Shown here in pieces: positions 23,500-38,342 of a stretch of DNA of 64,000 nt; the first letter of the stretch is position 1, and each line of letters opens with the position of its first letter. The notes under the pieces are model-generated. The model saw only the letters and a program-made list of their open reading frames with translations, was not told where the DNA came from and did no database searches. A program made the position numbers and the translations under genes. The stretch covers positions 5,993 to 69,992 of IMG/VR virus record IMGVR_UViG_3300017963_000266, one strand, 5' to 3'. Origin of the DNA: a virus.

Positions 23500-23823
23500 T
23501 TACAGTCGTGCTAATACCACCCCATCAATTACAATTGCCCCAGCTGATACAGCAAGGGGCAAACAAACCAGGACTGCTGTTGTAGGGAAAAAGTAATAAA
23601 GAATGACCAAGCCCAGGGACAACCAGACCGAATTACACCATAAGCATTTCAGGACAGCTGCAAATTCATTGCTGGCATAAGAGTCACCAGTCTGGGCCTG
23701 ATATTGGACCCCAGCCCACAACCGGAATCTAAGAAAGACCTTGTAGGGCCCATCCTCGTGGGTTACCAGACTGGATATGCGCCAGACAGCTAAGATCAGA
23801 ACCAGGAAAGGCACAAGATTCAT
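23500..23823 (-). CDS. DUF1360-like membrane protein
   Basis: WRISSLVTHEDGP and CLWCNSVW motifs with TM helices; likely start MNLVPF (ATGA overlap). Confidence 0.7.
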   Translation of the reverse strand: MNLVPFLVLILAVWRISSLVTHEDGPYKVFLRFRLWAGVQYQAQTGDSYASNEFAAVLKCLWCNSVWLSLGLVILYYFFPTTAVLVCLPLAVSAGAIVIDGVVLARL

Positions 23824-26800
23824 TCTGTCTGCGCCCCCTGTTCCTGGGCCCATTCAAGAATTGTTTGGGCTTTTGTCTGGCCAATGCCTTTAACTGTCAC
23901 TAAGCCAGCAATGCCCAGTTGGTATATATCCTGGGTTGTCTTAACGCCCTTTTCTTCAAGCTGGGCAACAATTTCTGGGGTTACCCCAGGCAATTGGGTC
24001 AAGTCAATTTCTGCCTGTTCTGGTGGGGCAAATCTTTCCTGGGTCTGAGCCATAATTCTTTCTTTTAGGGCTGCTATGTCCCCGCTGAGTAGGGTCTGGC
24101 TCTTCGGTTCTGGCCTGGGTGGGGGCTTAACTACAGTTTCAACAGCCCGATTTTCCCTAACTAGCTTATATCGGCTGTCAACCTGTGTGCCTTGCCTGGT
24201 TTCCATAAAAACATCATCTTTATGCATATAGAAAATGTCACCACATTTCCTTGACCCATAAAATCTCTTCTGGTTCGTTCTGGGGTCAACAGTCTTGCCG
24301 TATACAGGATGACTGGCAGAATTGATCCTGCCCATGGGGTCCCTAAGATACTCAATCAGTACAAAGTCATCAACCTGCTGTGTTGTTGCTGTTTGAGCAT
24401 TCACTTGTTCAACATTTTGGGGAACTGATACGCGCCTATTACCCCCACAACCACTGCAACCCATATTTTCACCATCACCTTTCTGTATGATATATTTTAT
24501 CAAATTCTCATGTTGTTGTAAACCAATGTTTACTCTGTTCCCAGTGTAAGAACGGACAGTCACCAGGGGCTGTGCTATTCTGGTATAACAATGACCAGCC
24601 TTGACCATGCGCCAGGCATAGTCACCATCTTCCCAACTGGACATCTTTTCATCATAACCCCCTATAGCCTGGTGCCAGGCTGTTGGCACCAGACAGGTCA
24701 CCAAACACCACAAATAGGGCACCTTGCCCAGTTCTGGTTGTTTAATGGCCCTTTCGCAATCAAAGTCATATGCTGCAAATTCTGCTATAGCAACCTTTTT
24801 CTTTGGGTCATAATTCCTGATCTTTCTTACCTTTTTTTCTTTTTCAACCGTTGTCCTTTCTACACCAGTTATAATCTTGGTGTAATCAGTGTAGATTATG
24901 CCCTGGGTATCATTCCATGCCCTAAGCATTTCTGACATACAATCTGGTTCCAAGTAGTCATCAGCATCAAGAAACAGCAGGAAAGGTGCCCTGGCACCAG
25001 CAGCCCCAATATTTCTGGCCTTGCCAGGGCCCTGGTTGCCTCTTTCTGTCTGGTGCCACTTAACGTAGGAATATGCTTTGCAGTATCTTTCTTTTAACTT
25101 TTTCTTTGGGGTGTCATCAATTACAATAGCTTCCCATTTTCTATAGGTCTGGGCTTCCAGGCTGTCAAGGGCATCAACCAAGTACTTTTCATGACCTGGG
25201 CCCACTGGGATAATTACTGAAATTACTGGTTCATCATATTGCCTAACTGGGTGACTTAGGTTATTGGCTGGGGGAACTACTGACATAAATGGATGCTGCT
25301 GATCTTTTGTGAATGGATGCCATTGAGTCCAGTCAATCCGCTTTTTGTCTTTTCTACCAGACCAACCTGACAGCCAGGAATAATTGAATAATGGTTCTGG
25401 GGTAATTTCTTCTGCCCTAAAGCCATAAGCCATCTGCCTAAGCCAGAATTCACCATCTTCATACCCTGCCCCATCAGGGGCATATCTTTGCCGATACCCC
25501 CCTAACCTTTCCCAGGCCTTGTAGCGAAAGACACAGCATGTAGGGACCTGGTTCCGTCGATTCATCTGTTTGCTGGCATCAGCTTGACCGGGCCATCTGC
25601 CCACCTTTTGGGTCCCATCTGGTTCATGAGTCATCATACCAGTATAGGCAATCCCCAGGCCTGGGTTATTCCTAAGGGCTGTTACACAGATTCTTAAGTA
25701 GTCCTTTTCCAGCCAGTCATCAGCATCAAGACAGCAGATCAAGTCATTGCCTGCCCTGGCTATACCATTATTTCTGGCATTGGCGACTCCCTGATTTTTC
25801 TGTCTCATTACAATGACCTGGGGATTGATGCCGGTATAACCAGTCAAGTCCCTTTCTAGCTGATCAAGATATTTCTTAGTATCAGGATTTGTTGAACCAT
25901 CATCAACAATAACCAACCTGTCTGGGGGCAAAGTCTGGTCAATTACAGAATAGATTGCCCTTTGAATATCTTTGGGGTCTTTGTTGTAGACAGGAATGAT
26001 AACCCCTACTGTATGGGTTTCTGATCTATTGGCTTTTCCAAAGACCTTGGCTAATTTTTCAACAGCTGAGTCCCATGTCCACAGGGCTGCTAATTCTCTG
26101 CCGGCAGCCCCCCACTCCTGTTGATTCTTCAAGCAAAGGTGCAACCCTCCTACCAGGTCATCAAAATCCCCTGGTCTGGCCAGATAACCATTGACCCCAT
26201 GCTGAATCAGGTCAAGGTTGCCACCCTGAGCCCAACCCAGAACTGGTACTTGACTGGCCATGGCTTCAAGGACCCCTACTCCAAAAGTTTCTTTAGTGGT
26301 AGACAGGTATACCCCAGCCCCCTGAACCAGGGGTTTCATTTCCCCAAAGGGCAGCCTGCCTGTTACCTTGACATTAGGTGGGGGATTATTGGCAAACGTA
26401 GAAAGAAAAAGATGCCTGGGGAATCTTTCTGCCAGGTCAACAACTATACTGGAATCACAGACATCCTTTTTATCCCTGTTCTTGTTCCATAGGATATACT
26501 TACCCTGAGGCGATTGGGGAGTCCAGTCATCAATGTCTATCCCATGGGGGACAATATGGGGACTGACTCTGACATCCCTTTGAATTGATTCTGCAACCCA
26601 GGCTGATGGGACTGTAATCTCTTTAGCTGTCCTGATGCTTTCAACAATCCTGGCATTGGTGCGGAACTCATTCCTGCTGGCTGGGTAATCAGCTGTCCAG
26701 TATAGGCCATGTAGAATGGCCACATCAGCCCGAACAGGACTTGCCCCAGCATGAACAGCCGTGATGTCATATCCCTGGTCTTGCCCTACAAATTCAATAC

Positions 26801-26903
26801 CATACTTTTTGGCATATTTGTGATAATGTAACAAGACCTGGTTGACCCCACTATTAAGGCTGTTCTTTTGAGATTCCAAGGTAGGTAGCATCAAGACGCG
26901 CAT
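23820..26903 (-). CDS. Multidomain glycosyltransferase GT4-GT2-GT2 with C-terminal CxxC region and HhH
   Basis: ETFGVGVLEAMAS (GT4); IIPVYN..VDDGS..LDADD and IIPVG..IDD..LDADD (two GT2); MGCSGCGG; LPGV and VKGIG HhH hairpins. Confidence 0.9.
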   Translation of the reverse strand: MRVLMLPTLESQKNSLNSGVNQVLLHYHKYAKKYGIEFVGQDQGYDITAVHAGASPVRADVAILHGLYWTADYPASRNEFRTNARIVESIRTAKEITVPSAWVAESIQRDVRVSPHIVPHGIDIDDWTPQSPQGKYILWNKNRDKKDVCDSSIVVDLAERFPRHLFLSTFANNPPPNVKVTGRLPFGEMKPLVQGAGVYLSTTKETFGVGVLEAMASQVPVLGWAQGGNLDLIQHGVNGYLARPGDFDDLVGGLHLCLKNQQEWGAAGRELAALWTWDSAVEKLAKVFGKANRSETHTVGVIIPVYNKDPKDIQRAIYSVIDQTLPPDRLVIVDDGSTNPDTKKYLDQLERDLTGYTGINPQVIVMRQKNQGVANARNNGIARAGNDLICCLDADDWLEKDYLRICVTALRNNPGLGIAYTGMMTHEPDGTQKVGRWPGQADASKQMNRRNQVPTCCVFRYKAWERLGGYRQRYAPDGAGYEDGEFWLRQMAYGFRAEEITPEPLFNYSWLSGWSGRKDKKRIDWTQWHPFTKDQQHPFMSVVPPANNLSHPVRQYDEPVISVIIPVGPGHEKYLVDALDSLEAQTYRKWEAIVIDDTPKKKLKERYCKAYSYVKWHQTERGNQGPGKARNIGAAGARAPFLLFLDADDYLEPDCMSEMLRAWNDTQGIIYTDYTKIITGVERTTVEKEKKVRKIRNYDPKKKVAIAEFAAYDFDCERAIKQPELGKVPYLWCLVTCLVPTAWHQAIGGYDEKMSSWEDGDYAWRMVKAGHCYTRIAQPLVTVRSYTGNRVNIGLQQHENLIKYIIQKGDGENMGCSGCGGNRRVSVPQNVEQVNAQTATTQQVDDFVLIEYLRDPMGRINSASHPVYGKTVDPRTNQKRFYGSRKCGDIFYMHKDDVFMETRQGTQVDSRYKLVRENRAVETVVKPPPRPEPKSQTLLSGDIAALKERIMAQTQERFAPPEQAEIDLTQLPGVTPEIVAQLEEKGVKTTQDIYQLGIAGLVTVKGIGQTKAQTILEWAQEQGAQTE

Positions 26904-26908
26904 GGGTA

Positions 26909-27373
26909 TTATTCCTCTGTTATAAATTTTCCATCTTTGTCATACCAGCTGGTTGCATGGTCTGTCCCAGCATATTCTACCAGCTTTGAGTCCATCTTTT
27001 TTGCAACCAAAAGACAGCTATCAATTTCATCTGCTGACTCTGGGTGGGTCTTTCTAAGGTCCCTTAACATCTGACAAATGGTTCTATTAGGGCTGTGGGC
27101 TGTGAGAACAGATTCTAGCTTGCCACTGGCAATGGCCCTGTCTAATTCTGTGTCCAACTGAGCAAACCCGCACTTCTGACATATCTTGCCTGAGGCAATA
27201 GACACAAGAACATGTTCTGAGCCATAACCTTTTACAAATTCACCACCAGGATTGACCACAACCTTCTTGGTATATGGTTGCCATATATGCTGGCAACCCT
27301 GGGTTTCCTGCTTTGCTTCAAGCTGGCTTAGTAATTCAAAGGTATGACCTGCAATCTTAATCTTTTTCATCAT
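26909..27373 (-). CDS. Hypothetical protein (Zn-ribbon-like)
   Basis: CQHIW..CQKCG. Confidence 0.55.
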   Translation of the reverse strand: MMKKIKIAGHTFELLSQLEAKQETQGCQHIWQPYTKKVVVNPGGEFVKGYGSEHVLVSIASGKICQKCGFAQLDTELDRAIASGKLESVLTAHSPNRTICQMLRDLRKTHPESADEIDSCLLVAKKMDSKLVEYAGTDHATSWYDKDGKFITEE

Positions 27374-27431
27374 TTATACCCTATTTCTATATGTTCCTTA
27401 TTTTTCCTTGCAACTAAAAAGGCCCTTGGCA

Positions 27432-28412
27432 TCAGCCAAGGGCCTGTTCAATCAGATCACAGACTTTGTGTATATCCACCTGTCTAAGGTGGGGGGCAAT
27501 GGGTAGACTAAGAATTGTCTTTGACAGCCAATCTACTTCAGGCAAGTGGTACTGGTACCCCAAAGCCCTATGTGGTGGGATAGGATAGTGAACCATAGTT
27601 TCAATACCTTGACCCACTAACCAGCGTTTTAACGAGTCCCTGGTATATTCACTTTTTAGGATAATAGTATACTGGTGCCAGACTGAGTCTGGGCCCCCTG
27701 TTGGCAATTCTATCCCTGCAACGTTTTGTAATCGGTCTGTGTATAGCTGGGCAAACTCTTTTCTTTGCTGGTTCCAGCTGTTCAAATAGGGCAACTTGAC
27801 TCGCAGAAAGGCTGCCTGTAAAGGGTCCATCCTGCTGTTAATTGCCCCGTTGGTGCCATGGTTCCTTAGTGCTACCAGATGGGCAGCCAATTCGGTATCA
27901 TCTGTGGTAATTGCCCCAGCGTCACCATATGCCCCCAGATTCTTTGTTGGGTAGAATGACCAAGCACATGTACCCTTAACCTTCAGGCCATGGCATTGCG
28001 CGCAATCTTGCAGGATATAATCTTTTTCCTGGTCAAGGTTCCGCATGACTGGTGCCCTGTGCCCATATAAATGAACCACTATTTCTGGTATGTTATCAAG
28101 GGCAGACAATTCTGTTGGTATAGGCATTGCCCCTACTGCCTCAACTGCTGACCAGGTTGACGACGCTGTCCAGCCTGGCACCTTAATTGCTGAATGGGAT
28201 ATGCCCCAGGCCCTTAGAACCAGCTGCAAAGCATCAAGACCAGACCCGCAACTGATGCAATATTTTGCCTCGTTGTAGTCAGCCCATTCTTTTTCAAAGG
28301 CAACAACTTCATTGCCCCGCACATAGGTGCCAGATGACATAACCCTATCATAAGCAGAATCAAGCCTTTTTCTTAGTTGTGGTTGTGGTGTTAGGTCATT
28401 AAATTTAAGCAT
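27432..28412 (-). CDS. DegT/DnrJ/EryC1/StrS sugar aminotransferase (WbpE/WlbC-like)
   Basis: VHLYG, DCAQ, SFYPTKNLGAYGDAG (PLP Lys), NSRMDPLQAAFL; start moved to MLKFNDL. Confidence 0.95.
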   Translation of the reverse strand: MLKFNDLTPQPQLRKRLDSAYDRVMSSGTYVRGNEVVAFEKEWADYNEAKYCISCGSGLDALQLVLRAWGISHSAIKVPGWTASSTWSAVEAVGAMPIPTELSALDNIPEIVVHLYGHRAPVMRNLDQEKDYILQDCAQCHGLKVKGTCAWSFYPTKNLGAYGDAGAITTDDTELAAHLVALRNHGTNGAINSRMDPLQAAFLRVKLPYLNSWNQQRKEFAQLYTDRLQNVAGIELPTGGPDSVWHQYTIILKSEYTRDSLKRWLVGQGIETMVHYPIPPHRALGYQYHLPEVDWLSKTILSLPIAPHLRQVDIHKVCDLIEQALG

Positions 28413-28893
28413 TGAAAAAGTCCAGTACATCAAAATAAGATGTTTTAATTGTTCTGGCAGGGTTGCCGGCAACCGCTGTTCTACTGGGCACATCTTTCAA
28501 GACTACAGCCCCCATTCCAACTATTGACCCTGCTCCAATAACCAGCCCTGGTCCTATCCTTGCCCCCATTCCGATTACTGCCCCTTTTTGTATTCTGGTA
28601 CCGCCCCGAAAGGCCCCACCAGTCTGAGGATATAGATCATTTGCAATATATACCCCAGGACCTAACCAGACATTTTCTGAAAGGATGGTGCCAGCCGGAA
28701 TGAAACAACCCCCATGGATTCTGACCCCATCCTTAATAATGACCTTGTCCTCTATCATGCAATTCTGCCCAATGTGGACATTATTGCCAATAACGGTATT
28801 CTCTCGAACCGTGGTTCTATGCCAGATGACAACATTTTCCCCGTATTGCACAGATGAATGTATTAGGGTCCATTCCCCAGCTGTTAGAGTCAT
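28405..28893 (-). CDS. Hexapeptide-repeat N-acetyltransferase (WbpD/WlbB-like)
   Basis: Left-handed beta-helix hexapeptides; GPGV..NDLYP; GAVVLKDVP..GNPAR. Confidence 0.92.
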   Translation of the reverse strand: MTLTAGEWTLIHSSVQYGENVVIWHRTTVRENTVIGNNVHIGQNCMIEDKVIIKDGVRIHGGCFIPAGTILSENVWLGPGVYIANDLYPQTGGAFRGGTRIQKGAVIGMGARIGPGLVIGAGSIVGMGAVVLKDVPSRTAVAGNPARTIKTSYFDVLDFFNA

Positions 28894-29927
28894 CCTTTAC
28901 CCAGTCTTGAGTGTTTGTAATGTGATTGCCCCAGAATAACCCTGCTTTCCATTTTGCTGGAATGGTATATTGCATGGCATATTTCAAGGGCTTTAGCAGC
29001 TTGCCAGATAGGGACTGGTGGGGGCTGTGCCAGATCAATGTCATCATACATGGCCTGGTGCCCATATCCATAAACGTCTGGGGGGTTTTCTTTCTTATCC
29101 CCCCAGTTCTGATCCGGTTCCCAAAAGTCAATTTGGTTACAGGCAAAGCCCCCTATTTTGACTGTCCCATTTTCACCTATTAGGGTAATTGCCCCTTCAA
29201 GGTCCCTGGTCGCCAGGGTTGTTGCCTGCAATGTCCCTATGCAACCAGAATCAAATCCTAAGGTTGCAACGATTCCTGTTTCAACTTCAGTATAATTAGA
29301 ATAGGTAGCAGTTGCTGACACTGTCCTGATGTCCCCCAACAACCACCACAATAGGTCAATGTGATGAATGGCCTGGTTTGCCAGGACCCCACCAGCATCA
29401 AGCCACTGGCCATGCCAATCAGCATAGTATGCTGGGGTCCTTGACCATAAAACACTACAATGGACCAACCTGATCTTGCCTAACTTGTATATGTTGTCCC
29501 TGATTGTCTGGACTGCCACGTTATAACGGTTTTGTTTAACTTCACAAATCCAAGAGCCATATACTTTGGCATTATGTTCCAAGATGCCTATTTCACGTAG
29601 GCTTAGCACCAGGGGCTTTTCAACCAGCATAGGGATTCCCAATGGCATCAAATTATTAATGCTATAGAAATGGTTGCCGGTTGCTATTCCCAGGGTGATA
29701 AGATCACCCTTGCATTTCTGAGCAAAGTCACTAATCTTGGGCCTGTCTTGTCTTTTGGTTGTATCAGCAACCAGATGGGGCACATCAAATCTTGATCCAT
29801 AGTCACGAGCCCTGGGCCCATAGTAATCAACAACCCCCACCAGTTTGGCCTTTTCGCTTTGGCCAGATAAAATCTGGCAGTGTCTTTTTCCTATCCTGCC
29901 ACAACCAACTAAAAGAACATTAATCAT
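28890..29927 (-). CDS. Gfo/Idh/MocA NAD-dependent sugar oxidoreductase (WbpB/WlbA-like)
   Basis: GCGRIG Rossmann motif, EKP, VKQNRYN, GGVLANQAIHHIDL, VYGYGH. Confidence 0.9.
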   Translation of the reverse strand: MINVLLVGCGRIGKRHCQILSGQSEKAKLVGVVDYYGPRARDYGSRFDVPHLVADTTKRQDRPKISDFAQKCKGDLITLGIATGNHFYSINNLMPLGIPMLVEKPLVLSLREIGILEHNAKVYGSWICEVKQNRYNVAVQTIRDNIYKLGKIRLVHCSVLWSRTPAYYADWHGQWLDAGGVLANQAIHHIDLLWWLLGDIRTVSATATYSNYTEVETGIVATLGFDSGCIGTLQATTLATRDLEGAITLIGENGTVKIGGFACNQIDFWEPDQNWGDKKENPPDVYGYGHQAMYDDIDLAQPPPVPIWQAAKALEICHAIYHSSKMESRVILGQSHYKHSRLGKG

Positions 29928-30577
29928 TTATCTCTCTTTTTCTTTAGGTGCCCATACAGATTAAGGTAATTTTTCCAATGCCTGGGCAGCCTAGTGATTT
30001 CAAAATCCATTTTCCAGCGTACATATTCAAAAGATAGCTGATCCCTGCTGCTGGTATCATCTTTGCATAGTTCTGCCCACCATGCCTGTTCAAATTCCTG
30101 CAAAGCTGGGGTGTTGCGCCTCACAACAACAATTAGGGCTGACAAGTCCTGGGCATAAGGGCTATCAAAAAATCCTTCCCCCTGGTATCTTTCCATCTGT
30201 TTTTCAATTCGGTCTGGGTCATCTTTGCCCATTCTGGATAGGACTCGCGCTTCCTGGGCAACTTTTCGTCTGGGGTGAGCAACACAGGCAAGATCAATCC
30301 CTGGGGGCAAATATTTAATTAATTCCTCAGGGTGTATCTTTAAGGTTGCATTGGCACCATGCATGATAGTGTATTCTGTCCCTTCAACCTGGGCTACTAG
30401 ATGGGACTGGCTAAAATAATATCTTGATGCCTTAACATCATCCTGGTGGGGTGGGTCAACCTGTCTAATAGCCCATCCATCTGCCCGAACATCATCTTGA
30501 TCAGTATACAAGATAGCATTGTACTTGGTAGGATGTAAGATGTCATAAGGGCCAAACAAGGCAGAATACACAACCAT
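29924..30577 (-). CDS. DUF616/TOD1-MUCI70-like glycosyltransferase
   Basis: VYSALFGPYDIL, HPRR and RDQLSF motifs. Confidence 0.7.
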   Translation of the reverse strand: MVVYSALFGPYDILHPTKYNAILYTDQDDVRADGWAIRQVDPPHQDDVKASRYYFSQSHLVAQVEGTEYTIMHGANATLKIHPEELIKYLPPGIDLACVAHPRRKVAQEARVLSRMGKDDPDRIEKQMERYQGEGFFDSPYAQDLSALIVVVRRNTPALQEFEQAWWAELCKDDTSSRDQLSFEYVRWKMDFEITRLPRHWKNYLNLYGHLKKKRDK

Positions 30578-31119
30578 TAAAATGTAACCCTTTCATACGC
30601 TACAATGGACCCAGCCCCACCTAACCAGGCCCAGGGAGTTCCTTTCCTTAGTACAAAGTATTCATCAACAGCCCTTTTGACCCCAGCCAGTCTTTCCTGA
30701 TGCTTTTCTGGCTTGTCATCTGTGTAGTAATCATGAACTGCTATGATTCCGTTTTCCGGAATCCATCTACCCCAATTGAATAAGTCATCTTTAACTATAG
30801 GGTAATCATGTCCCCCATCTACAAAGACCAGATGATAGCTAAAATCTTGGGCCCGAAAGGTTGTGCTGTTAGCTTCAAAATATTCAACACCTTTTAGCTT
30901 GTCCTTGCCAAAGATGTCAACCCGAAAGTTTGTATCAATCGCCAGAACTCTGCAACCTGAAGCCGCCAGGGGATGCAAACTGGTGCCCCGATTGACCCCA
31001 ATATTGACAATGGTAGGTTTTTCAAATCTGGCCTTAACTAGCAAGGCAAGTTGATGCAAGTATAGTCTTTCTGCCAGGGGCACATCATTGCCCATGCCCT
31101 TTTCCCAATAGTGAGTCAT
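30577..31119 (-). CDS. Class I SAM methyltransferase (Methyltransf_24-like)
   Basis: NIGVNRGTS, FVDGGHDY, AVHDY, GVKRAVDE. Confidence 0.85.
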   Translation of the reverse strand: MTHYWEKGMGNDVPLAERLYLHQLALLVKARFEKPTIVNIGVNRGTSLHPLAASGCRVLAIDTNFRVDIFGKDKLKGVEYFEANSTTFRAQDFSYHLVFVDGGHDYPIVKDDLFNWGRWIPENGIIAVHDYYTDDKPEKHQERLAGVKRAVDEYFVLRKGTPWAWLGGAGSIVAYERVTF

Positions 31120-31667
31120 TATTTCACCTTAACAAAAGAAGCAATGGAATCTGCTGCCTTCTTCCACTGCCATTCTCTGGCAGATATAAACCAGGTATCA
31201 ACTGCAAATTTTACCCCTTGTAATCTGTTTCTATCCCTTGGCTGGGGTCTGTAGTCATGAAAGATAAGTAACCCCCCAGCTGCAATGTGGGGGGCAAATA
31301 TTTCAATATCTTGTTGGACGCACTCAAATGTATGGCAACCGTCAACAAAAACAAGATGGTATGGTTCAGCCGGATTCTTTTCAAGATAAGTCTGACTTTC
31401 ACTTTCCACAAAGGCAATGTCAATACCATCTAGCTTATCCTTGCCCTGAAAGGGCCTGGTTGATAAATCTGGGTCAATGGCAATAAGGTGGGCTTTTGGT
31501 GCACCAGCTGCCAGGCAATGAACTGATGCACCCCAGCTGACCCCAATATTAACAATAGTGGGTTTTGAAAAAGAATGGGCAACTTGCACAGCAGAATAGA
31601 ACAATAATTCCCTTTCTGCTATGGTCATTTTTTCGCCCTGGGCTTTGCGCCAATGTTGGTCAGTCAT
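31119..31667 (-). CDS. Class I SAM methyltransferase, paralog of neighbour
   Basis: NIGVSWGAS, FVDGCHT, FHDY, GVKFAVD. Confidence 0.85.
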   Translation of the reverse strand: MTDQHWRKAQGEKMTIAERELLFYSAVQVAHSFSKPTIVNIGVSWGASVHCLAAGAPKAHLIAIDPDLSTRPFQGKDKLDGIDIAFVESESQTYLEKNPAEPYHLVFVDGCHTFECVQQDIEIFAPHIAAGGLLIFHDYRPQPRDRNRLQGVKFAVDTWFISAREWQWKKAADSIASFVKVK

Positions 31668-31945
31668 ACCAGTTCCAGCCTTTCTGGGTCCCAGGTATGG
31701 TCTGGGTACCTATGCTTTATGCGATTCCACATGTGGACTGACGCTGCTGGGCCCTGGTTCTGAGCAATGTCCCTAAGATAAGTTGCAGCTGATTCCAGAT
31801 CAGTTGGGTTGTCATGAATAGGGTGAAATTTCTGGTATAGTTGCCTGGTGACAACAGCATTAAAAGATGCCCCACTTTTTTCCATTTCCCTTTCTATGAT
31901 TTGAACCATATAACCAGGCAAGTGGATTGTCTTTTTTATCTTCAT
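31664..31945 (-). CDS. Ribbon-helix-helix-like DNA-binding protein
   Basis: MKIKKTIHLP..SFNAVV pattern; start moved to MKIKK. Confidence 0.5.
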   Translation of the reverse strand: MKIKKTIHLPGYMVQIIEREMEKSGASFNAVVTRQLYQKFHPIHDNPTDLESAATYLRDIAQNQGPAASVHMWNRIKHRYPDHTWDPERLELV

Positions 31946-32279
31946 GTTGCAAATTCCTTGTGTAGGCCTGCTGCTGAATTGGCGAATACAGGACAGGGAC
32001 TCCAGCTTCTTGCAGAACATAACCAGCATATCTGGCCTGCGTTTTCTTGGTAGAAAACATTATCATAGTTCCATCCGTGTTAAGCATATAGCCCCAGGAC
32101 TTGACTCCTTTTTTCTGCAACAGTTTTCTAATTGCCCTACTATCCCAAGTTGTGTTAAATGAAATGCCCCAATGGGCTGCCGGTCCTTCTAAAAAGTCGT
32201 TCAAAAAAGCCCAGGCTGGAGTCAGCCAGTCAAAGCCGCATGCAATATTCAACAAGTCATCAAAAGGATTATCAGACAT
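31860..32279 (-). CDS. Hypothetical protein, paralog of 61554..61946
   Basis: Shared DWxTPA, GVKxWG, MFS..QA..A.Y.L..AGxP, NxLxWL. Confidence 0.75.
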   Translation of the reverse strand: MSDNPFDDLLNIACGFDWLTPAWAFLNDFLEGPAAHWGISFNTTWDSRAIRKLLQKKGVKSWGYMLNTDGTMIMFSTKKTQARYAGYVLQEAGVPVLYSPIQQQAYTRNLQHEDKKDNPLAWLYGSNHRKGNGKKWGIF

Positions 32280-32359
32280 TATCCATACCTGACATCATCA
32301 ATAATCCACAGAACCACCAGGGCCCCTGCAATAATTGCTACAATAGCTAAAAGAGTCAT
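32279..32359 (-). CDS. 26-aa single-TM micropeptide
   Basis: MTLLAIVAIIAGALVVLWIIDDVRYG; ATGA and TAATG overlaps with neighbours. Confidence 0.55.
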   Translation of the reverse strand: MTLLAIVAIIAGALVVLWIIDDVRYG

Positions 32360-32433
32360 TCTATTCTTTCCCCCTTAATAATAACCCACCAGAACAAAAG
32401 AATAAACAGGATCAGCAATGCAATTTCAGTCAT
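32356..32433 (-). CDS. 25-aa single-TM micropeptide
   Basis: MTEIALLILFILLFWWVIIKGERIE; overlaps both neighbours. Confidence 0.55.
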   Translation of the reverse strand: MTEIALLILFILLFWWVIIKGERIE

Positions 32434-32626
32434 ACTTTCCACCCTTGCTAGTTAAGTGATAATCCCAAGATGCAACAATCAAGACTACAATCAGCCAGAA
32501 AAAAGCAGCAAAAAGGAATCGCCATGGGGACACATCCCCCCAAAGAATAGCCAGCCAGACTGACGCGACAAAAGACAGCCATGCTGTCACATTCATTATT
32601 TTCAGTACATAATTCTTTGGGGTCAC
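32426..32626 (-). CDS. Small 2-TM membrane protein
   Basis: 66 aa with two hydrophobic helices. Confidence 0.6.
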   Translation of the reverse strand: MTPKNYVLKIMNVTAWLSFVASVWLAILWGDVSPWRFLFAAFFWLIVVLIVASWDYHLTSKGGKYD

Positions 32627-33318
32627 AATTTTCGCCTCTTGTAAGGTTGTATCTTAGCATTGGTTTCTGGTCTGAATTGCCCCCCAAAAAGACCCCTGGT
32701 ACCAGCTTCTTTGTGCCAGATATATTCCCCAATTGGAAAGTTTGAAACTGTCCAACCATAATCTGGCACCTTTTTCATAATCTCAATTGCTGGGGCACCC
32801 CCTTCGGTATACCTGGCAGGCATTAGAGCCAGTTTGGAAATGTCAACCATACAGGCATAGGGATGAATATACTTAACAGCAGCTTCAGGATAAATTTCAG
32901 GATAAATAGTCTTGTAGGCAATACCAGCCTGGCTAACATATCTTAACCAACCGATTGCAAAAAGGTCCTGGTCTTGTTCAAAGGCTGCTATCATATTTTC
33001 AACCGCGCCCCCCTTCTTGACCCTGGTATCAGAGTCTAGTAAGAAAGCGTAAGTTGCCCCCATTGCCCAACCAAAGCCAATTCCCTGGTTCAAAGCTGGG
33101 CCATGATATATATTCTCGGGATTCTTGACCAGTCCGGCAATCTTGCCCTGATTGCTTAATTCATTCAGGACTTTGATAGAGTCCTGGCAGCCCCCATTAT
33201 CAACAACAATATGGGGAATCTTTGGGTAGTAATTGAACCAAGATTCAACACAGGTCTTAACCAGGTCTGGGGTCCTAAAGTTGACCGTAACACAACAGAC
33301 AGAACCAGTTCTTATCAT
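32623..33318 (-). CDS. GT2 glycosyltransferase
   Basis: VTVNFRT, VVDNGG, NIYHGPALNQG, LLDSD. Confidence 0.85.
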   Translation of the reverse strand: MIRTGSVCCVTVNFRTPDLVKTCVESWFNYYPKIPHIVVDNGGCQDSIKVLNELSNQGKIAGLVKNPENIYHGPALNQGIGFGWAMGATYAFLLDSDTRVKKGGAVENMIAAFEQDQDLFAIGWLRYVSQAGIAYKTIYPEIYPEAAVKYIHPYACMVDISKLALMPARYTEGGAPAIEIMKKVPDYGWTVSNFPIGEYIWHKEAGTRGLFGGQFRPETNAKIQPYKRRKL

Positions 33319-33359
33319 TAATTAATCAACCTTAATCAAGAAATAATAATCAACCATAA

Positions 33360-34148
33360 TCAACCTAAAGAACGAAAATTAAGGGGATAATCAAATCTCA
33401 AGAAAAAGTCCATGTTATACTTTTCAACTGCAAGTATTTCTTCTGGGGTTAAATGGTCTTTATAGTGCCCACTGGTGCCATGCACAACCTGAGGCACAAC
33501 CGACAGATGTCTTTTTTCACTTTCCAAGGGCCTGTTGTATTCTTGCCCTTTCCTGGCGTTGATCTTTTGGGGGGTATAACGGGCTGCTATTTCCTGGGCC
33601 TTTTCCTGGGTCAGATTAATTCTTAGGTGCTTCGCGATTCCCATGGCCTCAGTTGCAAGGTCCTGGGTAAATGTCTCAAACTTGGACCAGTAAGTCAAGG
33701 GCCACAGATTACACCATTTTTCCAGATCACCTAACCACTTGGGGAAATCCTGTGATGCAACCTTGATACCGTCCCATGGTTCAGTTTCCCTTTTGCCCCC
33801 TTGCCTGCTTAGGGTCCTGGTTTTCATACTGGTCAAGATGTCAAAGGGATTGCGTATACTGACCACACCCAGTAACCTGCCTTGCTGGTGATAGACTTTG
33901 CCATAAGATTCTTTTCTTTTTAGATTGTCATGGGTGTCATAATAATAGAGCCAGATGGGAGCAAAGACTTTGCAAACAATGTAGGTTGCATCATAGTTGT
34001 CATATTTCTGCAAAGCCCCTTCAGTATGGTACCCAATGCCCAGACCCAGGCCCGACTCTTCAACAATGTCCCTGGTAATCTGATATTGGGTTGATGATGC
34101 TGTCCTATAGGTACCAGCTACACAAACTAGAACAGGTCTATATGTCAC
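33360..34148 (-). CDS. Sulfotransferase-like protein
   Basis: AGTYRTASSTQY (PAPS loop-like), RNPFDILTS, GTSGHYKDHLT. Confidence 0.7.
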   Translation of the reverse strand: MTYRPVLVCVAGTYRTASSTQYQITRDIVEESGLGLGIGYHTEGALQKYDNYDATYIVCKVFAPIWLYYYDTHDNLKRKESYGKVYHQQGRLLGVVSIRNPFDILTSMKTRTLSRQGGKRETEPWDGIKVASQDFPKWLGDLEKWCNLWPLTYWSKFETFTQDLATEAMGIAKHLRINLTQEKAQEIAARYTPQKINARKGQEYNRPLESEKRHLSVVPQVVHGTSGHYKDHLTPEEILAVEKYNMDFFLRFDYPLNFRSLG

Positions 34149-34825
34149 TATTTCTTACCTGCTTTCTTTGATTTGGCTGCATCAGTCCAGTTTTCTGGGT
34201 CAACATTATCAATAACCCAATTCACCCCCTGGGGTTGCCCCTTATAATAATAATTAGTGTGAGGCATCACCATTTCCTTTGTACTTAAAAAGACCCCTTT
34301 TACGTTGTGTGCAACCCTGCCACTTCCCCATATTTCTGTTTTCCATGGGTCCTCAGATTCCCTTAATAGATTCATCAAGGTTTCACGTTCCCATATGCCA
34401 GGCTGTAAGGAAAGGCAATATCTTTTTCTTTTATCTATTCTGCCAAAGCCTGGTTCTGGATAATCAAATTGGGGTGGGGGCATAGGCCTTAATCTACAAT
34501 GGGCAATTCCCCCATTGGAATCAACGCATAGTTCAGCAGCCCTTTGCACAACTGGGGCATTAACATCTTTCAGCAGGTAATCAGACATCATAAACAAAAG
34601 GTGAGAGTCATCGTAATATTGCCTGAGGAATGTTTTCAATCGCCAGCCAAAGGCAATGTCAGGCCTGTCCCCCAGATAATAGACTGTTCTGTTAACCTGC
34701 AACTTTTTTGAATTGGTAACAAAGATCACTTCCCAGGGGCAGTCAGGCCAGACCTTTTTCAACCTGTCGTCAAAAGCTCTGCAAGTATCAGCGTATAGGT
34801 CACAACTGATAACAACTATTTTCAT
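34148..34825 (-). CDS. GT-A fold glycosyltransferase-like protein
   Basis: VISCDLY..WPDCP, SDYLL, SLQPGIWER..PWKTE. Confidence 0.6.
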   Translation of the reverse strand: MKIVVISCDLYADTCRAFDDRLKKVWPDCPWEVIFVTNSKKLQVNRTVYYLGDRPDIAFGWRLKTFLRQYYDDSHLLFMMSDYLLKDVNAPVVQRAAELCVDSNGGIAHCRLRPMPPPQFDYPEPGFGRIDKRKRYCLSLQPGIWERETLMNLLRESEDPWKTEIWGSGRVAHNVKGVFLSTKEMVMPHTNYYYKGQPQGVNWVIDNVDPENWTDAAKSKKAGKK

Positions 34826-35007
34826 CCTTTTTCCTTTTGTGGTGCAAGGTCCATTTTTTCAACAGTGTCAGAAAACCGTATGGCAGCCCTTAGCATATGT
34901 CCAGCCTGGGCTGCCATACTGCGATTCTGTTCCCTTGCTAATTTAACCAGTCTTTCTTTAGTTGCCTGATCAATTACTATTGTGATTCTTGCTTGTTCTT
35001 TCGTCAA
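34822..35007 (-). CDS. Ribbon-helix-helix (Arc/CopG-like) regulator
   Basis: RITIVID..KERLVKLAREQNRSMA; TTG start after AAGGGG. Confidence 0.75.
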   Translation of the reverse strand: MTKEQARITIVIDQATKERLVKLAREQNRSMAAQAGHMLRAAIRFSDTVEKMDLAPQKEKG

Positions 35008-36863: not shown

Positions 36864-38342
36864 TTAGAGCCAGACAGCGTAGTCTGAACTGGGGGTCCTG
36901 GCCGATACACCACCATTAACCCAGTGGGTATTGTCAGGATCATAATCCCTCAGGTGCTGTAACGGGCTGTACTTGACATGTTCAATCTTGCCAGCCAGCT
37001 GAGGAGTCCGCAGAACAACCCGCTGTTCTGACTTAAGACTAAACTTGTAACACCATTTAGTTTGCTCAACTGCCCAGCTGAAGATACCACGGTCAGTCCA
37101 AAAGTCCTCGCGTCCTTGCATCAGGGCAATGTCAGCCCCAGCTTCGCGGTAGTCCAGATATTCCATATAGGTTGCCGGGAAGTTTCCTGCTACCCGCATA
37201 GGAATAAAATAGATACTGCTGGCGTATTCCCCAGCGTTAAGATTACTGGAGTCATTGGTCGCGTTATGCTCATAGATGCAGGTATCGGTGACAACCGGAT
37301 AAGTACGCCCATTAACATCAATGGTCATGCCGCGCCGCATCCTGTCACGGTCACTGATATTTTCTCGCCCATCAGTCAGGACTCTGGCATCGCCGCCGAT
37401 GCTGGTGCAACGGTTCGTGTTATACTTGCATGGCCAGCAGGCAGTCAATTCATACCACAGCTGGGGACGCATGGCCCAGACCCATTGACCAGGTAGCATG
37501 CCGGTATCATCAGCCAGGGTGTAGATGAAATATTCCAGCATTGACATGTACTCAACAATGTCCTGGGTTGACCCACAAACGTCAGCATACTGGAAATCTT
37601 TCACATCACTATCCAGACTGGCACAGGCAGTGTTGGTGTCAGCATCAACCTGGCCTGTGGCAATCTGGTTGTCTAAGCCAGGAAATTCCTTGTACCCACC
37701 TCCAGGGTTGTTGTTGCTGGGGCTGCCAGTCCAGACATGGCTGCAAAGTTTCCTTTCCATCCGAACCGCCGCACTGACCATTTCAGACATAGTGATAAGG
37801 TTCAAGATTTGGGACTGATTCAGGCCTCTGGGGTACAGATCAGTCATTCCAAGAACCTCGCCCACCAGCCTCAGGTCAGTAAAGTCCCCACGGTTGACCC
37901 GTAACATAACCTTGTCCATTTCAATGGTACGAGTATCACGCGCCACGCGCCCAAACTGGGCCTGCAAATTACAGGCCTTGACAAAGCCGTCTGGGGCATC
38001 ATCACAAGGCTGCAATGGTTCTGCCCCCTGGTCATCACTGTAGCCAGTCAGGGCCCCATACCTGGGGTCTTCATTAACTGATCCCATCTTAGGTAGCATA
38101 GTAGCCAGGCCATGGGGTCTAACATGGGTTGTGATAATCTCACGTTCCAGACCTGGTGTGCTGAAAATGCCGGTACCACCATGCAAGAACGTGTTAGTTG
38201 CGGTACTGGCTGGGGCTTTGGTTGCCAGCCCCTGGTCTTTGGCAACCTGGCCTTGATAATGTTCCATCAAGGAAATCAGTTTTTCCTGGTTTGCCGCAAC
38301 CTGTTTGATAACGTCAATGTCTTGAAAATTGATTTCTGCCAT
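36864..38342 (-). CDS. Major capsid protein (putative)
   Basis: Follows protease/scaffold, strong AGGAG SD, terminator behind it; KEFPGLDNQI motif. Confidence 0.75.
   Translation of the reverse strand: MAEINFQDIDVIKQVAANQEKLISLMEHYQGQVAKDQGLATKAPASTATNTFLHGGTGIFSTPGLEREIITTHVRPHGLATMLPKMGSVNEDPRYGALTGYSDDQGAEPLQPCDDAPDGFVKACNLQAQFGRVARDTRTIEMDKVMLRVNRGDFTDLRLVGEVLGMTDLYPRGLNQSQILNLITMSEMVSAAVRMERKLCSHVWTGSPSNNNPGGGYKEFPGLDNQIATGQVDADTNTACASLDSDVKDFQYADVCGSTQDIVEYMSMLEYFIYTLADDTGMLPGQWVWAMRPQLWYELTACWPCKYNTNRCTSIGGDARVLTDGRENISDRDRMRRGMTIDVNGRTYPVVTDTCIYEHNATNDSSNLNAGEYASSIYFIPMRVAGNFPATYMEYLDYREAGADIALMQGREDFWTDRGIFSWAVEQTKWCYKFSLKSEQRVVLRTPQLAGKIEHVKYSPLQHLRDYDPDNTHWVNGGVSARTPSSDYAVWL

What the first reader, a model, noticed from the sequence alone, without database searches (positions are those of the whole stretch)
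23820..34825. Large glycan synthesis and decoration cluster inside the structural region
Seen: GT4-GT2-GT2 fusion, GT2, two GT-like proteins, two methyltransferases, a sulfotransferase-like gene and an oxidoreductase/acetyltransferase/aminotransferase triad between capsid and neck genes, plus GT4 and sulfotransferase-GT2 among tail genes (6378-9292). Known: some actinophages glycosylate capsid and tail-tube proteins using GTs placed among structural genes. Inference: an unusually complex methylated/sulfated virion glycan, or host-surface conversion.
Basis: partly seen in the sequence, partly recalled or inferred. Interest (0 to 1): 0.7.

Follow-up and report, generated by a model that had tools for sequence, protein, structure and literature searches.

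The report
Phage sugar-coating gene island beside capsid
An uncultured 70-kb tailed phage carries, right behind its capsid gene, about a dozen genes for making, linking, methylating and probably sulfating sugars, and most sampled relatives keep such an island at the same spot, so these phages probably sugar-coat their own particles, which has been shown by experiment only for mycobacteriophages.

Summary
Window 23820-34825 (minus strand) encodes a 1027-aa GT4-GT2-GT2-HhH fusion, a GT2, two GT-like proteins, two Methyltransf_24 methyltransferases, a sulfotransferase-like protein and a WlbA/DegT/QdtC-like triad that makes a 3-acetamido-3-deoxy sugar. A GT4 gene and a sulfotransferase-like/GT2 fusion lie among the tail genes.

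The island sits between an HK97-fold capsid gene (36864-38342) and a probable head-tail adaptor gene (18452-19801). In 42 of 54 non-duplicate relatives with at least 8 kb downstream of the capsid gene, a homologue of the triple GT lies downstream. The sugar-tailoring genes between them differ from phage to phage.

The genome shows no integrase, flippase, initiating transferase, TET/JBP dioxygenase or thymidylate-synthase-like gene. The experimentally studied cluster O mycobacteriophage system has the same logic: a Methyltransf_24-type O-methyltransferase, then three GT genes, inside the head module. No sequence similarity to it was significant.

Best reading (about 0.55): cytoplasmic glycosylation of virion proteins with a variable, methylated, possibly sulfated glycan. 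The acceptor is not shown. Host-envelope and DNA targets remain possible. This scan has reported the same kind of island before on other genomes. Verdict: a new variant of a known kind.

The parts
36864..38342 (-). Major capsid protein (492 aa), upstream flank of the island
   Evidence: No Pfam, PHROG or PDB-sequence hit. The AF2 model (pLDDT 70, pTM 0.67) matches HK97-fold capsids of SU10, PhiTE, SPO1, Mic1 and HK97 (Foldseek probability 1.00, E down to 9e-10). The family has 1474 homologues at E<=0.001.
34822..35007 (-). 61-aa ORF whose stop overlaps the start of the first island gene; ribbon-helix-helix-like by eye only
   Evidence: ORF list and sequence. Not scanned against families. Its function is inferred.
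34148..34825 (-). 225-aa member of a phage-specific family, GT-A-like (lead only)
   Evidence: No Pfam or PDB-sequence hit. In the Atlas the nearest named cluster is GT2 (0.91), and structure rows reach TM 0.85-0.87 to unnamed or GT2-named clusters. Homologues lie in the same island in many relatives (HMM A5).
33360..34148 (-). Sulfotransferase-like protein (262 aa)
   Evidence: Pfam Sulfotransfer_1, E 7.2e-6, 26 bits against a cut-off of 22. Stronger Sulfotransfer_1 genes occur in relatives' islands.
32623..33318 (-). GT2 glycosyltransferase (231 aa)
   Evidence: Pfam Glycos_transf_2, 3.3e-11.
32279..32626 (-). Three abutting small hydrophobic ORFs (66, 28 and 26 aa), function unknown
   Evidence: ORF list with translations. 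Hydrophobic stretches were seen by eye. No homologues were found in the relatives compared.
31664..32279 (-). Two overlapping ORFs of unknown function (139 aa; 121 aa, or 93 aa from an internal start)
   Evidence: No Pfam, PHROG or NCBIfam hit.
31119..31667 (-). Methyltransf_24 SAM methyltransferase (182 aa), probable sugar O-methyltransferase
   Evidence: Pfam, 6.6e-16. The same family occurs in 18 of 37 relatives' islands (my count) and in Corndog gp35.
30577..31119 (-). Second Methyltransf_24 methyltransferase (180 aa)
   Evidence: Pfam, 2.2e-9. It is 40% identical to its neighbour in alignment A7.
29924..30577 (-). TOD1/MUCI70 glycosyltransferase-like protein (217 aa)
   Evidence: Pfam PF04765, 1.2e-11.
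28890..29927 (-). GFO/IDH/MocA oxidoreductase, probable nucleotide-sugar 3-dehydrogenase
   Evidence: Pfam. The closest solved chains are 3q2i and 3q2k (E 4e-41 and 3e-40; I recall these as WlbA, the depositors' names say only dehydrogenase/oxidoreductase) and WbpB 3o9z (3e-7).
28405..28893 (-). Left-handed beta-helix N-acetyltransferase
   Evidence: Pfam Hexapep, 1.7e-21. The closest solved chains are QdtC (2e-30), a WxcM-like protein (4e-21) and 3mqg (4.5e-14).
27432..28493 (-). DegT-family sugar aminotransferase; the real start is probably Met28 (about 28412)
   Evidence: Pfam, 1.4e-57. The closest solved chains are 2oga (4e-60), QdtB (4e-50) and WbpE (3e-38), whose alignments begin at query residue 28-41.
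27420..27445 (-). Terminator-like hairpin (11 bp, 8 G-C, T-run) right after the aminotransferase gene
   Evidence: Consensus scan. This is a pattern match only.
26909..27373 (-). 154-aa ORF of unknown function
   Evidence: No family hit.
23820..26903 (-). Triple glycosyltransferase (GT4 + GT2 + GT2), a conserved non-catalytic domain, a Pro-rich linker and a C-terminal HhH domain (1027 aa); the conserved core of the island
   Evidence: Pfam. The EX7E-type and both DxD motifs are invariant in 8 homologues of 31-46% identity. 1492 homologues at E<=1e-50. A homologue lies downstream of the capsid gene in 42 of 54 relatives. No predicted membrane segment.
23500..23853 (-). DUF1360 small membrane protein (117 aa, 3-4 hydrophobic segments), usual downstream partner of the triple GT
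   Evidence: Pfam, 1.4e-9. Hydropathy scan. A homologue follows the GT in 25 of 32 relatives, within 200 nt in 18.
18452..19801 (-). 449-aa probable head-tail adaptor with an inserted beta domain; downstream flank of the island in relatives
   Evidence: AF2 pLDDT 58. No Foldseek match. In the VIA-align wide search, 12 of the top 15 rows are phage neck/connector proteins, Z 5.1-6.7. The GT gene precedes this gene in 29 of 29 relatives where both are seen.
8105..9205 (-). GT4-type glycosyltransferase among the tail genes
   Evidence: Pfam Glycos_transf_1, 5.3e-8.
6378..8111 (-). Sulfotransferase-like N-terminal domain fused to a GT2 domain (577 aa), among the tail genes
   Evidence: GT2 at residues 222-348, 3.8e-10. 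The N-terminus has no Pfam hit but is sulfotransferase-like in the Atlas (features 0.97; TM 0.74-0.78 to Sulfotransfer_3 clusters). No relative was found in viral contigs.

Best explanation
The island is a phage-encoded, cytoplasmic glycosylation system expressed with the head genes. It decorates one or more virion proteins, with the major capsid protein the first candidate and tail or neck proteins also possible.

Inferred steps:
1. The WlbA-like dehydrogenase, the DegT aminotransferase and the QdtC/WlbB-like acetyltransferase convert a host nucleotide sugar into a 3-acetamido-3-deoxy sugar.
2. The triple GT (one GT-B and two GT-A domains), with the separate GT2, the TOD1-like protein and the GT-A-like protein, builds an oligosaccharide on the acceptor.
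3. The two Methyltransf_24 enzymes O-methylate it, and the sulfotransferase-like protein may sulfate it using host PAPS.
4. The GT4 gene and the sulfotransferase-like/GT2 gene among the tail genes would do the same for a tail component.

The triple GT is found downstream of the capsid gene in most sampled relatives, while the tailoring genes vary from phage to phage. I infer from this that the glycan is an exposed and diversifying surface feature of the particle.

Shown here: the gene content, the folds, the synteny and the missing functions. Inferred: the acceptor, the sugar identity and every chemical step.
For: 1. Position. The island lies between an HK97-fold capsid gene and a probable adaptor gene. 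It is on the same strand as the terminase, portal and tape-measure genes.

2. Synteny. Of 78 non-duplicate capsid relatives, 54 have at least 8 kb downstream, and 42 of these carry a triple-GT homologue there (median 4 kb from the capsid gene, range 11 nt to 9.5 kb). The GT precedes the adaptor gene in 29 of 29. Capsid identity falls to about 31% across this set. The GT family (1492 at E<=1e-50) is about as large as the capsid family (1474).

3. Variable content. In 37 further relatives (195 ORFs), 34 hold at least one sugar-tailoring family: Methyltransf_24 in 18, DegT in 8, Sulfotransfer_1 in 5. Others hold dehydratases/epimerases, formyltransferase, PIG-L, GHMP kinase or GT10-like genes (my count).

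4. Soluble machinery. No island enzyme has a predicted membrane segment. The genome has no GtrA, Bac_transf or Wzx family match. None of the 76 ORFs scanned hits such families.

5. No integrase or resolvase.

6. Known parallel. [quoted passage not shown] In Corndog these are gp35 (TylF + Methyltransf_24) and gp36-38, lying between the portal gene and the protease/capsid genes.

7. Catalytic motifs of all three GT domains are invariant in 8 homologues.
Against: - No result here shows a glycan on any protein.
- The usual partner of the triple GT is a small membrane protein, DUF1360 (25 of 32 loci). A purely cytoplasmic protein-glycosylation model does not need it.
- The GT carries an HhH domain, normally a DNA binder. 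Pfam finds it in 4 of the 8 aligned homologues and in about 76 of the 120 listed homologues (my count).
- DNA methylase genes sit in the same interval in 7 of 37 relatives.
- No sequence similarity to mycobacteriophage enzymes was significant. None of 39 matching GenBank phage records is a Mycobacterium phage. BLASTP of the methyltransferases gives E 3.1. hhalign probability is only 25%.
- A conserved Ser/Thr in the disordered capsid C-tail did not co-vary with GT presence (Fisher p 0.67-0.71).
- 12 of 54 relatives show no GT within the DNA held, although several of these islands run off the 10-kb flank.
- An actin-like partition gene at the genome end leaves a plasmid-prophage lifestyle open.
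Confidence: 0.55

Rival explanations
1. Host-envelope modification. The enzymes build or alter a glycan on a lipid carrier or on a host surface polymer (LPS, capsule or S-layer glycan). DUF1360 would act as a membrane anchor or small flippase. The effect would be to mask receptors during infection or in a carrier state, giving superinfection exclusion or less loss of progeny to cell debris.
For: - DUF1360 is a 3-4-segment membrane protein of GtrA-like size and is tightly linked to the triple GT.
- GT2 domains give weak PHROG hits to GtrB-like O-antigen conversion proteins (2.5e-7 and 4.6e-5).
- Automatic names of homologues say 'involved in cell wall biosynthesis'.
- An actin-like partition gene hints at a possible plasmid-like state.
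- The virion carries glycan-directed domains (BNR propellers, beta-helix, LamG), so host glycans matter to this phage.
Against: - The 70-kb genome has no GtrA, initiating phosphoglycosyl transferase, Wzx, integrase or resolvase.
- None of the 195 ORFs in relatives' islands hits such families.
- The GTs have no membrane segments, unlike GtrB.
- Conversion genes of temperate phages are usually sporadic morons. This GT is found beside the capsid gene, inside the head-tail operon, in 42 of 54 sampled relatives.
- All listed contigs holding homologues are at most 113 kb, so none is visibly chromosomal.
Confidence: 0.2
2. DNA hypermodification. The HhH-bearing triple GT and its helpers attach a complex glycan to bases of the phage genome to evade restriction.
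For: - An HhH domain sits at the C-terminus of the GT.
- Two homologues carry a weak TAGT (TET-associated GT) hit: 9e-5, below the cut-off, and PF20691 listed for two homologues.
- DNA methylases lie in the interval of 7 of 37 relatives, one of them a C5 methylase in L025.
- Pyle et al. (bioRxiv 10.1101/2023.12.21.572611; abstract and section 9 read) report phage GT clusters that put mono- to tri-saccharides on 5hmC. Some of these lie near structural genes.
Against: - The complete genome has no Tet_JBP, thymidylate-synthase-like or C5 DNA methylase gene. No known route to a glycosylatable base was therefore found.
- Pyle et al. state that GT contigs without 5mYOX or ThyS are less likely to act on DNA.
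- Pfam finds no HhH in L006, L010, L011 and L019. One homologue carries an E3_binding domain instead.
- The island lies in the late structural block, not with the replication genes.
- I know of no report of amino-sugar synthesis, O-methylation and sulfation on DNA glycans (recalled, not searched for specifically).
Confidence: 0.07
3. Another acceptor. The glycan is made on a non-virion phage protein, released as a free or secreted oligosaccharide, or attached to a small molecule. Examples would be a decoy or a factor that modifies the matrix.
For: - Methyltransf_24/TylF, DegT and QdtC-like enzymes also occur in natural-product sugar pathways.
- Several island ORFs have no assigned function.
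- No acceptor was identified here.
Against: - No polyketide, NRPS or other scaffold genes were found in the 76 ORFs scanned.
- The strict placement between the capsid and adaptor genes in 29 of 29 relatives is hard to explain for a product unrelated to the particle.
Confidence: 0.12

Closest known systems
Mycobacteriophage virion glycosylation (cluster O Corndog-type: O-methyltransferase plus three tandem GT genes; Che8-type in cluster F). Source: Freeman et al. 2023, Cell Host Microbe, not held here. Known to me only through passages in PMC11600133, PMC12619734 and PMC11256854.
   Same: - Phage-encoded GTs lie inside the head-morphogenesis block.
- A Methyltransf_24/TylF-type methyltransferase comes directly before three GT units (Corndog gp35-38 between portal and protease/capsid genes).
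- All enzymes are soluble.
- The reported targets are the capsid and tail-tube subunits.
   Different: - No sequence similarity is significant. hhalign probability is 25%.
- Here the three GT units are fused into one 1027-aa protein with an extra domain and an HhH tail.
- The island lies after the capsid gene, not before it.
- It adds nucleotide-sugar synthesis, a sulfotransferase-like gene and further GTs.
- Its content varies widely among relatives.
- The hosts are unknown and the genome is 45% G+C. Sequencing runs holding this DNA are labelled sediment and seawater metagenomes.
- Attachment to virion proteins is untested.
Chlorovirus PBCV-1 capsid-glycan machinery (multidomain A111/114R with three GT functions; A064R). 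Source: PMC7826918, title and abstract from a search listing.
   Same: A virus-encoded, host-independent multidomain enzyme with three GT functions builds the glycans of the major capsid protein.
   Different: It is a eukaryotic giant virus making atypical N-glycans. No homology was tested here, and there is no syntenic island beside the capsid gene as far as I know (recalled).
Megavirinae clade-specific glycan gene clusters for capsid fibrils. Source: PMC10117803, abstract from search listings.
   Same: Virus-encoded pathways make rare bacterial-type amino sugars. Their content differs by clade and they decorate the particle surface.
   Different: These are giant viruses of amoebae and the acceptors are fibril proteins. 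The gene families and genome context are different, and nothing was compared by sequence here.
WbpB/WbpE/WbpD (WlbA/WlbC/WlbB) pathway to UDP-2,3-diacetamido-2,3-dideoxy sugars, and the related QdtB/QdtC 3-amino-sugar route
   Same: The three island enzymes match solved members of each step: 3q2i/3q2k and WbpB; WbpE and QdtB; QdtC and 3mqg.
   Different: The phage has no 6-dehydrogenase (WbpA) or 2-epimerase (WbpI) equivalent. All NCBIfam scores lie far below the equivalog cut-offs. The substrate and the nucleotide carrier are unknown.
Phage DNA sugar-hypermodification clusters (Pyle et al., bioRxiv 10.1101/2023.12.21.572611)
   Same: Phage GT-A and GT-B enzymes occur with accessory sugar enzymes, sometimes near structural genes.
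   Different: Those clusters depend on 5mYOX/TET or ThyS-like enzymes, which are absent from this genome.

Membership tests
Mycobacteriophage-type virion glycosylation system | Phage-encoded GT genes inside the virion structural gene block | tested here: met
   The island lies between an HK97-fold capsid gene and a probable adaptor gene. The Corndog genes lie between portal and protease/capsid.
Mycobacteriophage-type virion glycosylation system | O-methyltransferase gene followed by three GT units (cluster O form) | tested here: met
   Two Methyltransf_24 genes lie upstream of a GT4-GT2-GT2 fusion. The minimal relatives hold a GT-A-like gene, a Methyltransf_24 gene and the triple GT. Corndog gp35 is TylF + Methyltransf_24.
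Mycobacteriophage-type virion glycosylation system | Sequence homology to the mycobacteriophage enzymes | tested here: not met
   tblastn of the triple GT gave 39 GenBank phage records, none from Mycobacterium phages. The methyltransferase matched only Synechococcus phage records, partially. BLASTP against Corndog gp35 gave E 3.1. hhalign probability was 24.9%.
Mycobacteriophage-type virion glycosylation system | Glycans covalently attached to capsid and tail-tube subunits | not testable with these tools
   This needs mass spectrometry or glycoprotein staining of particles.
WbpB/E/D (WlbA/C/B) 2,3-diacetamido-sugar pathway | GFO-family 3-dehydrogenase, C3 aminotransferase and LbH 3-N-acetyltransferase encoded together | tested here: met
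   Three adjacent genes. Their best solved matches are 3q2i (4e-41), 2oga/QdtB/WbpE (4e-60 to 3e-38) and QdtC/3mqg (2e-30 and 4.5e-14).
WbpB/E/D (WlbA/C/B) 2,3-diacetamido-sugar pathway | UDP-GlcNAc 6-dehydrogenase (WbpA) and 2-epimerase (WbpI) completing the pathway | tested here: not met
   No such family appears among the 76 ORFs scanned. The host may supply them, or the product may not be a uronic acid.
Gtr-type O-antigen conversion (GtrA/GtrB/GtrC) of temperate phages | GtrA flippase, membrane-anchored GtrB, GT-C type GtrC, and an integrase-bearing temperate phage | tested here: not met
   No GtrA family match. The GT2 domains have no membrane segments. No large membrane protein lies in the island. 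No integrase or resolvase.
Phage DNA sugar hypermodification cluster (5mYOX/ThyS-dependent) | TET/JBP dioxygenase or thymidylate-synthase-like hydroxymethylase (with or without a C5 methylase) in the genome | tested here: not met
   Tet_JBP, Thymidylat_synt and DNA_methylase each gave 0 matches at E<=0.1 in the 69,992-bp record.
PAPS-dependent sulfotransferase | Match to a sulfotransferase family above the curated cut-off | tested here: met
   33360-34148 scores 26 bits against a cut-off of 22, E 7.2e-6, which is weak. The N-terminal domain of 6378-8111 is supported only by Atlas leads and has no Pfam hit.
PAPS-dependent sulfotransferase | Sulfate transfer from PAPS to a glycan | not testable with these tools
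   The phage has no APS kinase, so PAPS would have to come from the host.

The most novel reading that the evidence does not exclude
A large clade of uncultured tailed phages treats its particle surface the way bacteria treat O-antigen. The clade has well over a thousand capsid and triple-GT homologues in public data. A morphogenetic triple glycosyltransferase, found downstream of the capsid gene in most sampled relatives, coats the capsid (and in this phage also a tail part). The glycan's sugars, methyl groups and sulfate groups are swapped from phage to phage through a hypervariable tailoring island. This would give a virion 'serotype' under diversifying selection. A sulfated phage-particle glycan would be a first.
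Probability: 0.35. Interest if true: 0.8.

Novelty: new variant of a known kind. Interest (0 to 1): 0.6.

Why it matters
In the papers I could search, phage particle glycosylation is documented by experiment only for actinobacteriophages. Searches turned up no example outside them.

If this island does the same job, self-glycosylation is a widespread trait of an environmental phage clade rather than an oddity. Its chemistry would also be far richer: amino sugars, O-methylation and perhaps sulfation.

That would bear on several questions: how phage particles resist proteases, grazing or non-productive adsorption; how hosts or other agents recognise particles; and how glycan genes are read in viromes, where such genes are often booked as 'auxiliary metabolic genes' or host-conversion genes.

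The triple GT, found beside the capsid gene in most sampled relatives, gives a concrete and testable handle: co-express it with the capsid protein and weigh the product.

Tried and rejected
1. Capsid C-tail site. The disordered capsid C-terminal tail (pLDDT below 50 for residues 462-492) holds a conserved GG-x-S/T motif, with S480 invariant in 20 of 20 sequences. I tested whether the S/T co-occurs with the triple GT in 54 relatives and found no association. The counts were GT+/ST+ 30-34, GT+/ST- 8-12, GT-/ST+ 10-11 and GT-/ST- 1-2, with Fisher p 0.67-0.71. Many 'GT-absent' loci probably just run off the 10-kb flank, so the test is uninformative. My earlier impression that L020 lacks the GT was wrong: a GT fragment sits at the end of that locus.

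2. Complex prediction of the capsid protein with residues 800-1027 of the GT gave 'no answer' (score 0.00, mark 0.32). It counts neither for nor against binding.

3. Host identification failed.
- The 30-nt repeat pattern of the mini-array found nothing in genome contigs or viral contigs.
- Capsid relatives in MAGs carry inconsistent labels: Anaerolineales, Starkeya, Saccharibacteria, Uhrbacteria, Gammaproteobacteria, Tepidiformaceae and Nitrosotalea.
- Two GT homologues are labelled Planctomycetes MAGs.

4. Expression could not be assessed: no RNA holder was listed. I did not lay reads.

5. The 449-aa protein gave only weak PDB-sequence hits (FlgE, E 0.06-0.1) and no Foldseek match. Only the wide structural search gave a consistent but modest answer.

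6. The PDB profile search for the 225-aa family found nothing.

7. No relatives of the tail-region sulfotransferase-like/GT2 gene were found in viral contigs. A single-sequence scan with the triple GT also found none; the alignment query did.

8. The Freeman et al. paper could not be read. Its supplements may hold GT family assignments and glycan masses that bear on the comparison.

9. Loci L017, L018 and L021 (short MAG contigs) and L005-L012 (fetched through the GT itself) were left out of the synteny count.

Full report
**What the window is.** The window is bases 5993-69992 of a 69,992-bp IMG/VR virus record that CheckV rates as complete. G+C is about 45%. Almost all long ORFs lie on the minus strand.

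Landmarks:
- Small terminase at 46605-47114 (Pfam).
- Large terminase at 45308-46615 (NCBIfam).
- Portal at 42988-45303, assigned by homology to a Phage_portal ORF in relative L003.
- Tape measure at 12424-15684.
- Tail fibre and tail spike-like genes below 6400.

**The observation.**
- The largest gene, 23820-26903, encodes 1027 aa with one GT-B (GT4-type) domain, two GT-A (GT2) domains and a C-terminal helix-hairpin-helix domain.
- Upstream lie a 154-aa unknown, a DegT aminotransferase, a hexapeptide acetyltransferase and a GFO/IDH/MocA oxidoreductase.
- Further upstream lie a TOD1/MUCI70 GT-like protein, two Methyltransf_24 methyltransferases and two ORFs of unknown function.
- Then come three tiny hydrophobic ORFs, a GT2, and a sulfotransferase-like protein that sits only 4 bits above the Pfam cut-off.
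- The first island gene encodes a 225-aa protein without a Pfam hit. The ESM Atlas places it near GT-A proteins, as a lead only.
- Among the tail genes lie a GT4-type gene and a 577-aa protein. Its middle is a GT2 domain. Its N-terminal 215 residues are sulfotransferase-like by the Atlas but not by Pfam.
- Carbohydrate families hit 9 of the 14 ORFs submitted from the island, against 2 of the 62 other ORFs scanned in this genome.

**The flanks.** The 492-aa product of 36864-38342 has no family or PDB-sequence match. Its AF2 model (pLDDT 70) matches HK97-fold capsid proteins with Foldseek probability 1.00, so it is the major capsid protein.

The 449-aa product of 18452-19801 folds poorly (pLDDT 58) and has no Foldseek match. 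In the wide structural search, 12 of the top 15 rows are phage neck or head-tail connector proteins (Z 5.1-6.7). The N- and C-terminal helices align, and a beta domain is inserted between them. I read it as a probable adaptor, with modest confidence.

Two further points on this stretch:
- In this phage six unassigned ORFs (23489-19801) lie between the island and the adaptor gene. Relatives lack them.
- A TnpB/Cas12f-like gene with a four-repeat array has inserted between the capsid gene and the island. Relatives lack this as well.

**The sugar triad.** The best solved matches are these:
- Oxidoreductase: 3q2i and 3q2k (E 4e-41 and 3e-40), which I recall as WlbA. WbpB also matches.
- Aminotransferase: 2oga, QdtB and WbpE.
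- Acetyltransferase: QdtC, a WxcM-like protein and 3mqg.

To my knowledge all of these act at C3 of a nucleotide sugar. The three genes therefore most likely oxidise, aminate and N-acetylate C3, giving a 3-acetamido-3-deoxy sugar. All NCBIfam scores are far below the equivalog cut-offs, so the exact sugar is open.

**Relatives.** I fetched DNA around capsid homologues from viral contigs and MAG records. I then scored it with HMMs built from session alignments.
- Of 83 loci with a capsid hit, 78 are non-duplicate.
- Of the 54 with at least 8 kb downstream, 42 hold a triple-GT homologue downstream on the same strand. The median distance is 4 kb and the range is 11 nt to 9.5 kb.
- Of the 24 shorter loci, 4 hold one.
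- Where both the GT and the adaptor gene are seen, the GT comes first in 29 of 29.
- Several 'absent' loci still show island genes at the end of the flank, so 42 of 54 is a lower bound.
- A DUF1360 membrane-protein gene follows the GT in 25 of 32 loci, within 200 nt in 18.
- The GT family has 1492 members at E<=1e-50 and the capsid family has 1474 at E<=0.001.
- No listed contig exceeds 113 kb.
- No GenBank phage record covers 80% of the GT (0 of 50,697). None matches the capsid protein.

**The interval between capsid gene and GT is hypervariable.** Pfam scans cover 11 loci and a further 37 loci with 195 ORFs. My count for the 37 loci:
- At least one sugar-tailoring family in 34.
- Methyltransf_24 in 18, DegT in 8, Sulfotransfer_1 in 5.
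- Many 4,6-dehydratase, epimerase or reductase genes.
- Formyltransferase with PIG-L in 2.
- GHMP kinases, a cytidylyltransferase, a radical SAM enzyme, a 2OG oxygenase and GT10-like genes.

The smallest islands (about 1.5 kb; L047, L048, L064, L073) hold only the GT-A-like family and one Methyltransf_24 before the triple GT.

The interval is also an insertion hot spot. It holds homing endonucleases and inteins, with the GT itself split by an HNH gene in L008. It holds DNA methylases in 7 of 37 loci, and the TnpB element in this window. No ORF in any island hit a flippase, polymerase, ABC exporter or polyprenyl-phosphate transferase family.

**What the genome lacks.** Family searches of the whole record found none of the following:
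- Integrase or resolvase.
- GtrA, Bac_transf or Wzx.
- Tet_JBP, thymidylate-synthase-like or C5 DNA methylase.
- APS kinase.

A hydropathy scan found no membrane segment in any island enzyme. Only DUF1360 and the tiny ORFs are hydrophobic.

**Comparison with the known system.** Passages in three papers state the following about mycobacteriophages:
- They carry glycans on capsid and tail-tube subunits, at their C-termini (PMC12619734).
- Cluster O phages have three tandem GT genes downstream of an O-methyltransferase gene that modify these proteins (PMC11600133).
- Cluster F1 phages have related GTs (PMC11256854).

In Corndog these genes are gp35-38 and lie between the portal gene and the protease and capsid genes. 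gp35 is a TylF/Methyltransf_24 protein, the same Pfam family as the methyltransferases here.

The logic is therefore shared: methyltransferase, then three GT units, inside the head module. Sequence similarity is not significant. hhalign gives only 25% probability over 124 columns. The primary paper was not available.

**Weighing.** The triple GT is kept beside the capsid gene in relatives whose capsid identity falls to about 31%. It is soluble, and all three catalytic centres are invariant in the 8 homologues aligned. It has no partner genes for lipid-linked export or for making a glycosylatable base. This fits a morphogenetic enzyme that modifies particle proteins in the cytoplasm. The phage-to-phage turnover of tailoring genes fits an exposed product.

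Against this stand the tightly linked membrane protein, the HhH tail and the neighbouring DNA methylases in some relatives. On the HhH tail: Pfam finds it in 4 of the 8 aligned homologues and in about 76 of the 120 listed ones, and one homologue carries an E3_binding domain instead.

I put virion-protein glycosylation at about 0.55, host-envelope modification at 0.2, DNA at 0.07 and another acceptor at 0.12.

**Earlier notes of this scan.** These describe the same kind of island on other genomes. One shares sequence words with this GT and at least six were found by keywords. They agree with my reading but are not independent evidence.

**Literature.** My searches found no paper describing such an island, or a sulfated particle glycan, in phages outside the actinobacteriophages. 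I judged this from listings and abstracts only. Subscription journals are largely outside the library.

Noticed in passing
window 35034-36748 (minus strand): A 482-aa TnpB/Cas12f-like gene (OrfB_IS605 + Cas12f1-like TNB; 35300-36748) is followed by four direct copies of a 36-38-nt repeat (84-97% identity to the reference copy). The unique spacers are 24, 36 and 37 nt long. This looks like a mini CRISPR-like array inside a phage, inserted between the capsid gene and the island, and relatives lack it. There was no Rfam match. The repeat found no exact match in genome or viral collections. The spacers found no hit in any locus held.
   Followed up: partly
window 21119-22657 (minus strand): A 512-aa protein has an N-terminal ConA-like/LamG domain. 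It is followed by about ten tandem copies of a roughly 20-residue hydrophobic repeat of the type 'LNELTLAGS-P-TVVPGA'. It may be a fibre or decoration protein. It lies in a six-gene block that relatives lack.
   Followed up: no
L013:2-520 (start of the virus record, outside the window): An actin-like protein N-terminal domain (ALP_N, 5.4e-15) sits at the end of the record. With no integrase found, this may hint at plasmid-like maintenance or a phage cytoskeletal function.
   Followed up: no
L008:9995-13617; L020:18132-20192; L080:12138-14228: Selfish elements sit inside island genes of relatives. The triple GT of L008 is split into a GT4 part, a GT2-GT2 part and an HhH ORF by an HNH endonuclease gene. 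Polysacc_synt_2 dehydratase genes in L020 and L080 carry an intein with a LAGLIDADG endonuclease.
   Followed up: partly
L025:12125-13360; L036, L043, L046, L062, L085, L095 (capsid-to-GT interval): DNA methylase genes (one C5 type, six N6/N4 type) lie between the capsid gene and the triple GT in 7 of 37 relatives. They are often preceded by an RNase H-like or exonuclease gene. They are probably morons, but they keep the DNA-target rival alive.
   Followed up: partly
window 16617-18107 and 9289-12405 (minus strand): Two large tail-region proteins carry BNR/Asp-box beta-propeller domains. One resembles Ycf48 photosystem II assembly factors (profile E 5.6e-11 to PDB chain 8am5_S). The 496-aa one lies just upstream of the tape-measure region and may be a decorated tail-tube protein.
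   Followed up: partly
window 27420-27445 (minus strand): A strong terminator-like hairpin (11 bp, 8 G-C pairs, then a T-run) lies directly after the aminotransferase gene. It may divide the island into a tailoring unit and a GT unit.
   Followed up: no
window 34822-35007 and 31664-31945 (minus strand): Two small ORFs look like ribbon-helix-helix proteins by eye. The first is translationally coupled to the first island gene. Neither was scanned against families.
   Followed up: no
window 51716-52228 (minus strand): A pyrimidine-dimer DNA glycosylase gene (Pyr_excise, 6.2e-20) lies in the replication/repair region.
   Followed up: no
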